DNA of 64,000 nt. Source: a virus. The position numbers and the translations under genes are program-made. The notes under the pieces are model-generated. The model worked only from the letters and a program-made list of their open reading frames with translations. It made no database searches and was not told the origin of the DNA. Positions 32,746 through 35,689 of the stretch are shown here, piece by piece. Positions within the stretch are counted from its first letter, which is position 1, and the number at the start of each line of letters is the position of its first letter. The stretch spans positions 32,001 through 96,000 of the IMG/VR virus record IMGVR_UViG_3300017754_002544, one strand, 5' to 3'.

Positions 32746-32926
32746 ACGTTATGTTATTTTTAGCTCTTATATCCTTGTGTGTAAACTGCCAAAACTCCCC
32801 TGTCTCATTTATGATTATGGTATAAATCGTATCGGTCTCATGACCAAACTCTGTTACTAACCATATAAATCCTGGACCTTTTGGAGTGACTACCTCTATT
32901 CTATTTTGTGGTTCAAATACTCTCAT
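32708..32926 (-). CDS. Hypothetical protein
   Basis: 72 aa ORF overlapping both neighbours in operon fashion. Confidence 0.55.
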   Translation of the reverse strand: MRVFEPQNRIEVVTPKGPGFIWLVTEFGHETDTIYTIIINETGEFWQFTHKDIRAKNNITYGRDTRKRKEGW

Positions 32927-33593
32927 TATTTACATCTATTATAATTTTTTCATCTCTAGTTACTAATTTTGTGTATAACTCTATATCTCTTGACCATTCT
33001 TGGCCGGTCCAAAATTCAAATCCATGATAATTAGATTTATACAAACAACATAGTTCATAACCACCTAATAGATACACATACTCACATCCTAACAATCTAG
33101 CTGTCTCACATTCATACATCTGTGCAACTGCACCTAATGATAACTTTGGATCAGCATAATCCCATATAAATTGATAAGCTACAAATTGATTACCGAATAC
33201 TTTATATAAACTTATACCAATTAAATCACCATCCCAATATTCAATAACACTACAATCCTTAAATGAGTCTATACTAATATTTCTTTTAAATCCATGATAC
33301 TGACAATACTTTTCATATAAATCAATATACTTTTCTCTCTCAGCAACTACATCACCTGATTGTACAATTACCTTTTTAGAAAGTCTTCTAACTGTCTTGG
33401 ATGGTTTATAGATACTTAAATCAATTCGAGTACTCCTTTCATTATACCATTTACCCTCCCATGGAATCCATCCTTGTTTAAGAGCATCATTACACGACTC
33501 TCCTTCCTCTAGGAGTCCATAAGCACAAGGTACAATGACTTCAATATCACTCACCTTTCCAAATCCTTTTACATGGTCAAATATAACTTTCAT
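32913..33593 (-). CDS. ATE1/Bpt-like aminoacyl-tRNA--protein transferase (GNAT fold)
   Basis: L.QGW, LYEKY...H, WDYADPKLSLG...E...AR.LG..YVYL.G.Y..C..YK..Y...E match the ATE C-terminal pattern. Confidence 0.7.
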   Translation of the reverse strand: MKVIFDHVKGFGKVSDIEVIVPCAYGLLEEGESCNDALKQGWIPWEGKWYNERSTRIDLSIYKPSKTVRRLSKKVIVQSGDVVAEREKYIDLYEKYCQYHGFKRNISIDSFKDCSVIEYWDGDLIGISLYKVFGNQFVAYQFIWDYADPKLSLGAVAQMYECETARLLGCEYVYLLGGYELCCLYKSNYHGFEFWTGQEWSRDIELYTKLVTRDEKIIIDVNNESI

Positions 33594-33608
33594 ATCTATA
33601 AATTAAAA

Positions 33609-33999
33609 AACCCTAGCAGTGTCTATTGATCAGGTAGTCTTACTAGGGGTTGTTACTAGTTATACAGCTCACCGCTTTCCTAGTAACGAAAAGACCAAGG
33701 CTGGTGCGCTGTGCTTACACTTGGGAAGCGTCCTTGGTACTTGACCTATAGAATAGAATCTATAGGGTTAATATCATGGCAACGGATCACCATGAGGTCC
33801 CAGTATTTGCATACTGGTGGGGTAAGTTAACGCTGATTACGGGTTCAGCGTTAGAAACCTTTGTAGGCTCCAGACCATAAGGTAAAGAACAAAAGTTATA
33901 AATAGATAAAGTGCCTGATCCATGTACCACCGTGGGCACTTTTAGTTTATTCGGTTTCCGTTTCATGGTCATCTACTTATAACTAGCAACTAGGGTAGA
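33609..33999 (-). ncRNA. Putative structured RNA: about 10 tandem hairpins
   Basis: GC-richer than flanks; back-to-back stems (e.g. gttactag/ctagtaac, accaagg/ccttggt, taacgctga/tcagcgtta, aaagtgcc/ggcacttt). Confidence 0.6.
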
Positions 34000-34413
34000 T
34001 TATTTATTTTTTAATCTTTCCCTATATCTTTTAGTCATCATATTATTAATTGCTTTGCATTCATCACATCTACACCCCCTATCATAAGCTCCTTTACTTG
34101 GATGTTTTTTTAGTTTTTCAAAATCTATTCCTTCTAAAAGTTTAATTCTACCTTTATCAATGCCATCTTGCCAATTTTCTTTTGGACTCCCTAGAAATAA
34201 ATGTTTCGGATTCACGCACATTCTATTATCACAAGTATGACATACATATAAACCTTCAGGAATTTCACCATGGTGTATCATATATGATACTCTGTGAGAA
34301 TCTATAACTTTACCATTAAGTTTAAATGCTCCATAACCAGTTTTACCTCTAGAACATGCTGTCCATAACCAACAAGTTTCAGTTTTATTTACTTTGTCAA
34401 AAAACCTTTTCAT
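34000..34413 (-). CDS. Free-standing HNH homing endonuclease
   Basis: CWLW...GYG...HRVSY...[20 protein letters not shown]; C-terminal GCRCDEC; own promoter-like TTG-19 nt-TATATTAG upstream. Confidence 0.88.
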
Positions 34414-34503
34414 ATATTTATTTTTGTAGCAACTAATATACGAACTTTTATTTAGAAATCAAGAACAAAAGAGAGAGTATTTCATCTCTCTTAAGCTTTA
34501 CTC

Positions 34504-34587
34504 TAACCGAGGGCAGGACTCGAACCTACAACGTGCAACCATTCATCAGGGTAAGATACCGTTTCCTTATTACGCACTACCTAGTTA
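34504..34587 (-). ncRNA. tRNA-like RNA lacking D arm and normal anticodon arm
   Basis: Acceptor-like stem, U8A9, T arm GTAGG-TTCGAGT-CCTGC, single gtgc/gcac stem with a large loop. Confidence 0.55.
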
Positions 34588-34805
34588 AGTTTCCCACTCT
34601 GAGATTACAAGTGAGTAGTCATATCGGTTTGTTTCCTTTCAAACAACCTGCTGGGCATCCCCGTTAAAAAAAGTCAACACTACTGGGAGGAGGTGTGTCG
34701 TGCTCCTTTATTCCCATGAGACTGGCGTTTAAGGATGTCCAGTCTAATACCCTATCAAGTTTAAATGAGACATTGACAAGTCTGCTGAGTATCTCTTACT
34801 CATTG

Positions 34806-34921
34806 TTATGAGAATAGGACTCGAACCTACACCTCACGGCAGGATTTAATGTATATTCTTAGGACATGACCCCCTACCTTTTACCACCCACCATGTGCTC
34901 TACCAATTAAGCTACCTCATT
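34806..34921 (-). ncRNA. tRNA-like RNA with 51-nt insert replacing the anticodon loop
   Basis: Canonical D arm GCTT-AATTGGTA-GAGC and T arm GTAGG-TTCGAGT-CCTAT, 6-bp acceptor stem, stem CATGG/CCGTG closing 51 nt. Confidence 0.65.
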
Positions 34922-35088
34922 AAATTTGGTAGAGATTTGAACACCAACGCATGATCACCCATACGTCTCGTTTCTTTTGTTTTAGGCACTCTACCTTTGC
35001 AAGTTCGTCTTACCTTGCGCCACCATTCGTGGAATTGCCCGAAATCCCAATGGTTGTCGTTGTACTATCAGACATCAAACGACTGCTG

Positions 35089-35163
35089 TGAGCCTGGAGA
35101 GATTCGAACTCATCAATCTACATTTTAGAAGAATGTTGCATTATCCAGTTATGCTACAGGCTC
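35089..35163 (-). tRNA. tRNA-Arg(UCU)
   Basis: Full cloverleaf GAGCCTG...CAGGCTC; anticodon arm ACATT-CT TCT AA-AATGT; TTCGAAT loop; CCA not encoded. Confidence 0.92.
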
Positions 35164-35242
35164 GAAAAACTACCCCATCATTTTTAAAATACAAGCAAAA
35201 ATAAATGATAGGATAGTTTTATTTGTTGACCTTAAGTTAAAT

Positions 35243-35689
35243 TTATTTTAAACTAGCTGTCTTTATTCTAGTTTTTTTCTTAGGCTTATCTTCTACGATA
35301 ATCTCCTTGATATTTTCCTTAGCATCTTCTTCGTCCATTTCTTCAGTAGAAATAGTTAGACCTGAATCAACATTTTGCTTATGTTGTTCCATTAATCTAA
35401 TTGTCATATCAGATACATTAGATCCAAGACCTGTGACAGTTTGTTGAATCATATTCAATACGCCTTGAATTTGGTGTAAGTTTCTACCTTGAATGTGGCA
35501 AAAGTATATGAATGAATTAAATAAACCACCAGGTATTGTTACCATAGAATCTTTACTATAGGTTTGTTTAAAGTATCCACCTTTATCCAATTCTTCAAAA
35601 AGTTCATCATACTTCTTTTCCATTTCTTGATTCTCTTGTAGCATAGCTTCCTTAAGCTGCTCTTCTGTCATTTGTTCTTTGTTTTCCAT
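35243..35689 (-). CDS. Hypothetical protein
   Basis: 148 aa acidic, helical ORF. Confidence 0.6.
   Translation of the reverse strand: MENKEQMTEEQLKEAMLQENQEMEKKYDELFEELDKGGYFKQTYSKDSMVTIPGGLFNSFIYFCHIQGRNLHQIQGVLNMIQQTVTGLGSNVSDMTIRLMEQHKQNVDSGLTISTEEMDEEDAKENIKEIIVEDKPKKKTRIKTASLK

What the first reader, a model, noticed from the sequence alone, without database searches (positions are those of the whole stretch)
33609..33999. Array of about 10 back-to-back unrelated hairpins directly upstream of the ATE-like gene
Seen: 390 nt almost fully tiled by stems (33609-33651, 33652-33687, 33694-33738, 33742-33771, 33774-33795, 33799-33821, 33828-33853, 33857-33883, 33908-33942, 33972-33999). There is also an alternative 13-bp long-range pairing 33652-33664 / 33978-33990 that is complete only on the minus strand via a G-U pair. 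The stems share no sequence, so this is not a CRISPR or REP array. Inference: a large ncRNA or a polycistronic set of hairpin sRNAs (decoys, antitoxin or crRNA mimics), possibly a switch controlling the transferase.
Basis: partly seen in the sequence, partly recalled or inferred. Interest (0 to 1): 0.7.

Follow-up and report, generated by a model that had tools for sequence, protein, structure and literature searches.

The report
Modular structured RNAs in phage tRNA operon
The hairpin-packed stretch is real and consists of three conserved, uncatalogued non-coding RNA modules strung together at the end of a lake phage's tRNA region; what they do is still unknown.

Summary
On the minus strand, 33594-33999 folds far better than shuffles (z -5.24). 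It is not one anonymous hairpin array but a composite of three modules. (1) 33605-33826 is a ~220-nt six-hairpin RNA (D-E-F-G-H-T) ending in a terminator-like hairpin. It belongs to a family with at least 70 distinct members in uncultured freshwater phage contigs. Core: 96.4% of cells paired, 22 of 33 pairs compensatory. (2) 33829-33894 is a two-hairpin 'B-C' motif with a near-invariant core, shared with SPbeta/phi3T-like Bacillus and Paenibacillus phages. (3) 33898-33980 is a smaller module 'A' with one distinct homologue. No module matches any Rfam 15 family. Members abut same-strand tRNAs (22 of 69) or are bracketed by TAnnTTTG promoter-like motifs. The HNH gene upstream is a 519-bp cassette absent from relatives. 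The link to the ATE-like gene is weak (13 of 80 loci), so a switch for that gene is not supported. Nearest analogues by position are T4 RNA C/D and GOLLD/ROOL; no homology was found. Function is inferred only. Earlier scan notes flagged probable relatives in other genomes; I did not test them.

The parts
33605..33649 (-). Module T: terminator-like hairpin. Outer stem CCCUAG/CUAGGG, inner 4-bp stem, 7-nt loop CUGAUCA, then U6 at 33610-33605. It forms the 3' end of the D-T RNA.
   Evidence: CM R1 hit 33605-33742, 121.7 bits. Helices 5 and 6 are 99.8% and 95.8% paired, and 6 of their 12 pairs show compensatory change. The simple terminator scan did not flag it because its loop is too large.
33652..33687 (-). 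Module H: 8-bp stem GUUACUAG/CUAGUAAC with a conserved internal loop (GGAAAG / UAUAAC) and a short apical stem. In relatives the apex carries alternative inserts of up to about 45 nt.
   Evidence: Helix 4: 12 pairs, 10 with compensatory change, 95.3% paired. Insert variants are visible in the alignment.
33694..33738 (-). Module G: outer stem ACCAAGG/CCUUGGU, an asymmetric internal loop, and an inner stem capped by a GUAA-type loop.
   Evidence: Helices 1-3: 9 pairs, 6 with compensatory change. The outer-stem counts may be inflated by one-column register slips in the seed alignment.
33745..33766 (-). Module F: 8-bp hairpin.
   Evidence: Helix 3: 97.8% paired, 3 of 7 pairs compensatory. F is absent from some family members.
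33774..33795 (-). Module E: hairpin with a conserved loop (GUGAUCCGUUGC here; one base longer in most relatives).
   Evidence: Helix 2: 100% paired, 5 of 6 pairs compensatory.
33800..33826 (-). 5' leader (CUUACCCCA) plus module D: a 7-bp hairpin with a GCAA loop. This is the start of the D-T RNA.
   Evidence: Helix 1: 100% paired, 4 of 6 pairs compensatory. The conserved CCAC leader begins right after a tRNA 3' end or a TAnnTTTG motif in relatives.
33829..33852 (-). Hairpin C of the B-C motif: 8-bp stem with an invariant 8-nt loop ACCCGUAA.
   Evidence: The exact 20-mer occurs in 21 IMG/VR stretches. The stem shows compensatory change at 2 pairs in L114 and L204.
33858..33894 (-). Hairpin B of the B-C motif plus the invariant linker ACAAAGGUUUC. 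B1 stem is 33890-33886 with 33871-33867; the apical stem is ACC/GGU.
   Evidence: All 5 B1 pairs show compensatory change across the lineages. A sixth lineage, KLEB27-3, has AUCC/GGAU. blastn and nhmmer match SPbeta/phi3T-like, Paenibacillus and Bacillus phages.
33898..33980 (-). Module A: outer stem 33980-33971 with 33907-33898, enclosing a small hairpin and the inner hairpin 33942-33908.
   Evidence: Minus-strand z is -2.51. One distinct homologue, L213, keeps both stems: U-A becomes C-G in the inner hairpin and G-U becomes G-C in the outer stem. Many near-identical contigs occur in two lake metagenome runs. There were 0 hits in IMG/VR.
33983..33996 (-). Relic 3' acceptor strand of the upstream tRNA-like element (5' strand AACUAGG near 34575).
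   Evidence: In the form without HNH, 34516 is joined to 33996 with one letter between. CCUAGUU (33994-33988) then completes a perfect 7-bp acceptor stem; this is read directly from the sequence.
33997..34515 (-). Free-standing HNH endonuclease cassette: ORF 34000-34413, a promoter-like site and a terminator-like hairpin upstream. It splits the RNA region.
   Evidence: Pfam HNH_3 at 40.8 bits; PHROG HNH endonuclease families. Contigs of runs X4 and X20 skip exactly these 519 bases. Promoter-like site 34462-34435 and terminator-like site 34492-34469.

Best explanation
The stretch is the distal part of a phage RNA operon on the minus strand. That operon runs tRNA-Arg, two tRNA-like elements, other small RNAs, an inserted HNH cassette, and then this region. 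The region encodes a composite stable non-coding RNA made of three independently conserved modules.

Module A is 33898-33980. The B-C motif is 33829-33894. The D-E-F-G-H-T RNA is 33605-33826, and its last hairpin with a U-run acts as an intrinsic terminator.

Most likely mechanism: the region is transcribed with the tRNA-like elements or from the HNH or another upstream promoter. The 5' ends are set by tRNA-processing nucleases where a tRNA or tRNA-like element abuts, or by a transcription start where a TAnnTTTG promoter abuts. The 3' end is set by module T. The product then acts in trans as a folded RNA or RNP rather than by regulating the neighbouring gene. This would resemble T4 RNA C/D, GOLLD and ROOL, whose roles are equally open.

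Shown here: structure, conservation, strand, unit boundaries, modularity, and the HNH insertion polymorphism. Inferred only: transcription, processing, stability and trans action. The molecular target is unknown.
For: Structure: minus-strand z is -5.24. Core G-H-T has 96.4% of cells paired, against 78.5% in shuffles and 31-43% in slid controls; 22 of 33 pairs are compensatory and the covariation score is 0.487 versus 0.157 (0 of 500 shuffles). D-E-F has 99.3% paired and 12 of 19 pairs compensatory. B-C has 91.7% paired and 7 of 13 compensatory.

Strand: 82 G-U/U-G cells against 23 A-C/C-A cells in paired columns. Every module folds better on the minus strand.

Family: 100 IMG/VR stretches match a signature pattern, giving 70-73 distinct sequences. 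The complete 124,113-bp virus record holds one copy.

Unit boundaries: 22 of 69 distinct members have a same-strand tRNA nearby. Downstream tRNAs start 0-7 nt after the U-run, and upstream tRNAs end 4-34 or 81-85 nt before the core. A TAnnTTTG motif lies within 45 nt downstream in 35 of 69 and within 150 nt upstream in 35 of 69, against 4.4% of background windows.

Not gene-specific: only 13 of 80 ATE loci carry the RNA.

Modularity: B-C lies before D in the window but between E' and F in L114 and L204. B-C stands alone with a promoter-like site and a terminator in L010 and L017. A is joined directly to the H 3' strand and T in L213.

HNH cassette: it is absent from relatives, which makes the RNA region continuous with the tRNA-like element.

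T4 has the same layout of tRNAs, a homing endonuclease, tRNA-Arg, rnaD and rnaC.
Against: There is no expression evidence. None of the 22 listed sequencing runs is on record as RNA, so transcription, processing and stability are untested.

In the window itself no TAnnTTTG motif precedes the RNA. Only 12 nt separate the U-run from the ATE-like start codon, so read-through coupling to that gene cannot be excluded here.

The T loop's invariance (UGAUCAA) was partly imposed by my search pattern. L204 and L213 carry a different T apex.

The core alone folds only slightly better than shuffles in the window (z -1.69).

Family members are related phages, so shuffle controls overstate significance. The slid controls are the fairer test.

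Module A rests on one distinct homologue.
Confidence: 0.6

Rival explanations
1. Cis-acting leader or attenuator. The folded domains sense a signal and decide whether hairpin T terminates or lets RNA polymerase read into the next gene (the ATE-like gene here, tRNAs or small ORFs elsewhere).
For: The layout of structured domains, then a terminator hairpin with a U-run, then a gene start 12 nt later in the window is the classical riboswitch or attenuator arrangement. In at least 9 members a tRNA begins 0-7 nt after the U-run, and that tRNA would need read-through or its own promoter. The invariant GGG in the H internal loop could in principle compete for the CCC of T; this is read from the alignments and is an inference.
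Against: Downstream genes are not consistent. Half of the members have a promoter-like motif between T and the next gene (35 of 69). Only 13 of 80 ATE-like loci carry the RNA. No covarying antiterminator alternative was found.
Confidence: 0.13
2. A string of independent hairpins that are cut apart and act singly, for example as protein-binding decoys or small RNAs.
For: Modules change order and occur alone. D-E and F are optional. tRNA-like elements that could serve as cutting marks lie upstream. Several loops are highly conserved in sequence.
Against: G, H and T always occur together in the same order in all 69-71 distinct members. Linkers between hairpins are 3-10 nt with conserved bases and no tRNA-like punctuation inside the unit. 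Nothing shows internal cleavage.
Confidence: 0.12
3. One globally folded large ornate RNA of about 390 nt, closed by the 13-bp long-range helix. This would be a distant analogue of ROOL or GOLLD that may self-assemble.
For: The MFE of the whole stretch uses the long-range helix and gives z -5.24. The context next to tRNAs in a phage matches what is reported for GOLLD and ROOL (PMC5737381, passages read). The loop hexamer UGAUCA in T is palindromic and could form kissing dimers; this is an inference.
Against: The long-range helix competes with helix H, which has compensatory change at 10 of 12 pairs. Its 5' arm is a relic tRNA-like acceptor strand next to the HNH junction. Modules A and B-C are absent from most family members. 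There is no Rfam match to ROOL or GOLLD even at E up to 10. The UGAUCA loop is not universal.
Confidence: 0.08
4. A DNA-level element, such as an origin, a recombination hotspot or a packaging signal, or a small protein-coding gene.
For: Module junctions recur at short shared words such as UAUAAC. A 61-aa ORF (33787-33972, minus strand) overlaps modules A to D.
Against: G-U pairs outnumber A-C pairs 82 to 23, which points to RNA of one strand. Relatives differ by indels that are not multiples of three within the ORF span, and by compensatory pair changes. The ORF spans modules that occur separately elsewhere.
Confidence: 0.04

Closest known systems
Phage T4 small stable RNAs RNA C (rnaC, species 1) and RNA D (rnaD, species 2)
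   Same: Both are non-coding RNAs of 119-139 nt at the distal end of a phage tRNA cluster, on the same strand as the tRNAs. In T4 they directly follow tRNA-Arg, with a free-standing homing endonuclease gene (segB) inside the cluster (T4 record annotation). Their roles are stated as unknown (PMC3014915, passages read).
   Different: No homology was detected. The core model R1 scores at most 4.9 bits (E 0.65) on the T4 region with filters off. The RNA here is longer, modular, and ends in a terminator hairpin. The endonuclease here is HNH, not GIY-YIG.
GOLLD (RF01998) and ROOL (RF03087) large ornate RNAs
   Same: Both are multi-hairpin non-coding RNAs of unknown function, often in phages or prophages and often next to tRNAs (PMC5737381, passages read).
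   Different: There was no match to either family in the window at gathering score, nor at E up to 10 in 33300-35300. The unit here is smaller (about 220-300 nt). It is built of exchangeable modules and was found, with one exception, only in uncultured lake phage contigs: 1 hit in 185,579 species genomes, on a 5.6-kb MAG contig.
DUF3800-VIII RNA motif (RF03075) and the other DUF3800-associated motifs
   Same: In phi3T-like and SPbeta-like phages the B-C motif directly abuts a DUF3800-VIII match: 44.7 bits in L001 and 48.3 bits in L203, against a gathering score of 40.2. The authors list these motifs as being of unknown function, several of them with 3' terminators (PMC5737381).
   Different: The window has no DUF3800-VIII match. 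The B-C motif lies outside the Rfam model. No DUF3800 gene was looked for here.
Candidate structured RNAs catalogued from IMG/VR (Fremin et al. 2023, PMC10690425)
   Same: The source collection is the same. The catalogue holds 8,495 candidate structured RNAs of 29-151 nt, including tRNA-like ones and 1,241 with predicted terminators (passages read).
   Different: Individual hairpins may already be listed there.

Membership tests
Any Rfam 15 family (GOLLD, ROOL, HEARO, group I intron, tmRNA, RNase P, riboswitches, ribozymes) | Covariance-model match at or near the curated gathering score | tested here: not met
   Whole window at gathering score: only two tRNA matches. 33300-35300 at E up to 10: 5 matches, none on the minus strand inside 33594-33999. 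The only match inside that span is a plus-strand mir-17 hit of 16 bits at E 3.5. Eleven related loci also gave nothing on these modules.
tRNA or tmRNA | Cloverleaf detected by ARAGORN or the Rfam tRNA model | tested here: not met
   ARAGORN finds only tRNA-Arg at 35088-35163. Rfam tRNA hits lie at 35089-35163 and 34806-34921 only.
T4 RNA C / RNA D | Sequence and structure homology to rnaC or rnaD | tested here: not met
   R1 on T4 70.5-72.7 kb with filters off: best score 4.9 bits, E 0.65. Only the core model was tested. Modules A and B-C were not modelled against T4.
T4 RNA C / RNA D | Position: same-strand small RNAs at the end of a phage tRNA cluster that also holds a homing endonuclease | tested here: met
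   Window layout. T4 layout.
New D-T phage RNA family (defined here) | Match to covariance model R1 (G-H-T core), plus conserved D, E and F helices | tested here: met
   Window 33605-33742 scores 121.7 bits at E about 5e-28. D, E and F align with 16 relatives. The window sequence was in the seed alignment, so its match is partly by construction. Independent nhmmer and blastn hits came before the model was built.
Intrinsic (Rho-independent) terminator | G+C-rich stem directly followed by a U-run on the transcribed strand | tested here: met
   CCCUAG...CUAGGG followed by U6 at 33610-33605. The three C-G pairs are invariant in 71 of 71 distinct members. The simple scanner missed it because the loop exceeds 8 nt. 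Termination activity itself was not tested.
Riboswitch or attenuator leader | Consistent association with one downstream gene family, and an alternative antiterminator pairing | tested here: not met
   Downstream genes vary. 13 of 80 ATE loci carry the RNA. No covarying alternative pairing was identified.
CRISPR or REP-type repeat array | Repeated sequence units | tested here: not met
   There are no direct repeats of 14 nt or more within 33594-33999. The only repeats in 33594-35242 lie upstream, including a 16-nt T-arm word.
Group I intron carrying the HNH ORF | Flanking exons of an interrupted gene, and an intron core | tested here: not met
   No Rfam intron match. The flanks are RNA modules, not exons of a coding gene. 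The 519-bp cassette is simply absent in relatives, with one letter between the two sides. This fits a free-standing endonuclease cassette.

The most novel reading that the evidence does not exclude
Phages build composite non-coding RNAs from a pool of self-folding modules that recombine at short linkers. One module, B-C, has a core of about 30 nt that is identical between Bacillus/Paenibacillus phages and lake phages whose nearest cultured relatives infect Bacteroidota. On this reading B-C is an aptamer-like or catalytic element aimed at a target common to very different bacteria, such as the translation, transcription or RNA-processing machinery, or a universal metabolite. The D-T core would then be a new ornate RNA forming an RNP or an RNA-only assembly during infection.
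Probability: 0.15. Interest if true: 0.8.

Novelty: new variant of a known kind. Interest (0 to 1): 0.6.

Why it matters
Phage tRNA clusters have long been known to carry extra stable RNAs whose roles remain unknown (T4 RNA C/D, GOLLD, ROOL). This locus adds a well-supported, abundant family from lake phages with clear boundaries and a modular build.

It also adds a small motif shared with SPbeta and phi3T, which can be manipulated genetically in Bacillus subtilis. That gives a practical route to a function for at least one module.

The HNH presence/absence polymorphism shows how homing endonucleases colonise RNA gene clusters without destroying them.

Tried and rejected
Group I intron hosting the HNH ORF: my first lead. 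I rejected it because there is no Rfam intron match, no exons, and relatives show a clean presence/absence polymorphism.

Pseudoknot ACCUU/AAGGU in B: I set it below the extended-hairpin model. The apical stem covaries (ACC/GGU in the window against ACU/AGU in SPbeta-like phages), while the pseudoknot partners never vary.

Kissing-loop dimerisation through UGAUCA: I kept it only as speculation. My search pattern forced that word, and L204 and L213 lack it.

Homology to T4 RNA C/D: none.

Presence in cultured relatives: I searched 4 whole phage records (Cellulophaga phi4:1, csAssE-Sib, KLEB27-3, phi3T) with R1. The only hit was 17.1 bits, antisense inside a CDS, and I judged it chance. blastn of the 406 nt against 50,697 phage records matched only the B-C part, in 20 records.

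Synteny upstream of the ATE-like gene: the window's orf148, HNH and orf247 were found in none of the 80 ATE loci; only the downstream orf72 was found.

Flanking-gene clustering: it gave only synteny of related phages and no RNA-related protein partner.

Module A: 0 hits in IMG/VR by nhmmer on the held loci and by a 20-mer scan, and 1 metagenome contig.

Expression: no RNA holder was listed among the 22 runs. X20 is labelled RNA-Seq, but the tool rates it as probably DNA, and all runs were laid as contigs. I draw nothing on expression from this.

Parts of the stretch without contig cover are not interpreted.

Supplementary files of PMC10690425 and PMC5737381 were closed, so prior listing of these motifs cannot be excluded. 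My print searches were made; none turned up a description of these RNAs.

The script stopped with an error on its last record after printing all 69 rows. The tally of 22 of 69 is my hand count of those rows.

Full report
**Context.** The window is part of a complete 124,113-bp virus record with direct terminal repeats. It is AT-rich (about 27-37% G+C in coding parts), and the genes around the finding lie on the minus strand.

Between a 148-aa ORF (35243-35689) and an ATE_C-domain gene (32913-33593; Pfam 33.1 bits, cut-off 25) lies a 1.65-kb ORF-poor, G+C-richer stretch. It holds:
- tRNA-Arg(UCU) at 35088-35163;
- a tRNA-shaped element with a 51-nt insert at 34806-34921;
- a second T-arm-bearing element near 34504-34587;
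- a 137-aa HNH endonuclease gene at 34000-34413;
- the finding itself, 33609-33999.

The helicase's nearest cultured relatives are Cellulophaga phages (35.6% identity) and a Bacteroides phage. A DUF4494 gene is present, and TAnnTTTG motifs recur. I read these as pointing to a Bacteroidota host. That the motif is the Bacteroidota promoter consensus, and that DUF4494 is typical of that phylum, are my recollection and not tool results.

**The observation.** The minus strand of 33594-33999 folds with z -5.24 and the plus strand with z -3.08. Each sub-module folds better on the minus strand. No direct repeat occurs inside the stretch. No Rfam family matches it, even at E up to 10.

**What the stems are: the 3' part.**
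- A first comparison with 80 loci encoding relatives of the ATE-like protein showed that the region upstream of that gene is not syntenic. Only 13 of the 80 loci share similarity with the 3' 70-230 nt of the stretch.
- Aligning those loci revealed a conserved multi-hairpin RNA.
- A degenerate signature from its 3' end retrieved 100 IMG/VR stretches, giving 70 distinct sequences.
- Seventeen full-length sequences, the window and 16 relatives, align over 222-263 nt. RNAalifold finds 43 pairs, 21 of them with compensatory change.
- I built a covariance model (R1) of the invariably present core G-H-T from 69 sequences.
- On a clean model-based alignment (79 hits, 71 distinct), 96.4% of cells form standard pairs. 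Column shuffles give 78.5% and slid partners give 31-43%. 22 of 33 pairs show compensatory change.
- Helices D, E and F give 99.3% paired and 12 of 19 compensatory.
- G-U pairs outnumber A-C pairs 82 to 23, so the structure belongs to RNA of the window's minus strand.
- The window and its whole genome hold exactly one copy, at 33605-33742 for the core (121.7 bits).

**Boundaries and context of the D-T RNA.**
- The family begins a few bases before a conserved CCAC word. It ends with hairpin T plus a U-run.
- In 22 of 69 distinct members ARAGORN finds same-strand tRNAs close by. Downstream tRNAs start 0-7 nt after the U-run. Upstream tRNAs end just before F or D (hand tally).
- In the others a TAnnTTTG motif sits just upstream of the RNA, in 35 of 69 members, clustered at about -40 or -90 from the core. 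Another sits just downstream of T, also in 35 of 69. Background is 4.4% of windows.
- The RNA is therefore a discrete unit, either embedded in a tRNA array or carrying its own promoter-like site.
- It is essentially confined to uncultured phage contigs. There was one hit in 185,579 species genomes, on a 5.6-kb MAG contig. Four cultured or named phage genomes gave none.

**The B-C motif.**
- blastn of the stretch against 50,697 phage records matched only about 66 nt (roughly 33830-33895). The 20 matching records were Bacillus SPbeta/phi3T-like phages, two Paenibacillus phages and Bacillus phage KLEB27-3, always in unannotated DNA.
- The motif is an irregular hairpin B, an invariant linker, and hairpin C with the invariant loop ACCCGUAA.
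- Across the lineages all 5 pairs of stem B1 and 2 pairs of stem C change in a compensatory way. Overall 91.7% of cells are paired, against 77.4% in shuffles and 20-51% in slid controls.
- Its setting differs by phage:
  - in phi3T it lies about 320 nt upstream of yonK and abuts a DUF3800-VIII match;
  - in L010 and L017 it stands alone between a promoter-like site and a terminator hairpin;
  - in API480 it lies between the holin gene and an annotated terminator;
  - in KLEB27-3 it lies inside a 1.1-kb ORF-free gap;
  - in the lake-phage contigs L114 and L204 it lies between E' and F of the D-T RNA;
  - in the window it lies in front of D.
- Such strong sequence conservation across phages of such distant hosts is the most unusual feature seen here.

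**Module A and the HNH cassette.**
- Laying contigs of four metagenome runs on 33300-35300 showed a joint from 34516 to 33996 with one letter between. It occurs in a DNA contig of X4 and a contig of X20. Relatives therefore lack the 519 bp that carry the HNH gene, its promoter-like site and the preceding terminator-like hairpin.
- In that form the upstream tRNA-like element gains a perfect 7-bp acceptor stem, whose 3' strand is 33994-33988.
- In the window the cassette brings a slightly different copy of that strand, so the element is not destroyed.
- Module A (33898-33980) has many near-identical copies in two lake metagenomes. The loose ends of those contigs look like tRNA on both sides.
- It has one distinct homologue, L213. 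That copy keeps the inner hairpin through a U-A to C-G double change and improves a G-U to G-C in the outer stem.
- In L213, A is joined at the word UAUAAC directly to the H 3' strand and T. This is another sign that modules are recombined.

**Interpretation.**
- The evidence fits a stable, trans-acting composite RNA made from the phage's tRNA operon.
- By position it resembles T4 RNA C/D. T4 has the same order of tRNAs, homing endonuclease, tRNA-Arg and two small RNAs, and their roles are unknown (PMC3014915, passages).
- By context it resembles GOLLD and ROOL (PMC5737381, passages).
- Homology to those RNAs was tested and not found.
- A switch for the ATE-like gene is unlikely as a general role. 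It cannot be excluded for this one genome, where no promoter-like motif separates T from the start codon.
- Transcription, processing and any partner remain untested. No RNA run was available.

**Novelty.**
- None of the three modules is in Rfam 15.
- A catalogue of 8,495 candidate structured RNAs from IMG/VR exists (PMC10690425; abstract and passages). It may list pieces of them, but its supplements were closed.
- Earlier notes of this scan describe probable relatives in other genomes and reached a similar reading. I did not test those loci.
- I class the finding as a new variant of a known kind: extra structured RNAs in phage tRNA clusters. Its unusual features are the modular build and a motif shared across phages of distant hosts.

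Noticed in passing
window 33997-34515: The HNH endonuclease cassette is a presence/absence polymorphism. Contigs in two runs join 34516 to 33996 with one letter between. The first bases of the cassette mimic the displaced 3' acceptor strand of the tRNA-like element, so that element stays foldable.
   Followed up: partly
window 34504-34587 with 33988-33994: The second tRNA-like element has a perfect 7-bp acceptor stem (AACUAGG/CCUAGUU) only in the HNH-less arrangement. In the window the pairing partner supplied by the cassette has a bulge and a wobble.
   Followed up: partly
L001 3072-3137; L203 8002-8067: In phi3T-like and SPbeta-like phages an Rfam DUF3800-VIII match (44.7 and 48.3 bits) starts right where the B-C motif ends. 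The Rfam motif may be one piece of a longer structured leader upstream of yonK.
   Followed up: no
L207 1283-2392 (Bacillus phage KLEB27-3): A 1.1-kb unannotated ORF-free gap holds a B-C motif and has no Rfam match. It may be another multi-module RNA region in a 216-kb Bacillus phage.
   Followed up: no
L065 3786-3895; L066 3882-3989; L124 3536-3689; L187 1118-1246; L195 5105-5258: Some contigs carry a weaker-scoring second copy of the core RNA (about 19 nhmmer bits or 51-56 CM bits) directly beside the first.
   Followed up: no
alignment (for example L147, L201, L074): The apex of helix H carries at least three unrelated alternative inserts: one about 45 nt containing CUGACGAG, one about 45 nt with a long hairpin, and one short palindromic GGUACC type. 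The window has the shortest form.
   Followed up: no
L204 980-1060; L104, L116, L142 upstream of F: A second G-like hairpin (GUACCUACC...GGUAGGUC followed by UUUU) precedes the RNA in several contigs. G-type hairpins therefore also behave as a reusable module.
   Followed up: no
related loci, downstream of T and upstream of D or F: TAnnTTTG motifs bracket the RNA in half of the members, and in some of them an ATG follows 5-10 nt later. This suggests very short leaders for the next gene.
   Followed up: partly
L202 946-1092: A 5.6-kb contig binned into a Dehalococcoidia MAG carries a full-scoring copy of the RNA (145.6 bits). It is probably a phage contig mis-binned into that MAG.
   Followed up: no
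window 34807-35090: The stretch between tRNA-Arg and the first tRNA-like element is conserved in L108 (92.8 bits, nhmmer) and L152 (52.9 bits). The upstream small RNAs therefore also have relatives.
   Followed up: no
window 32913-33593: The ATE-like protein passes Pfam's ATE_C threshold (33.1 bits against 25). It has at least 94 relatives in IMG/VR contigs, always followed by a conserved 72-aa ORF.
   Followed up: partly
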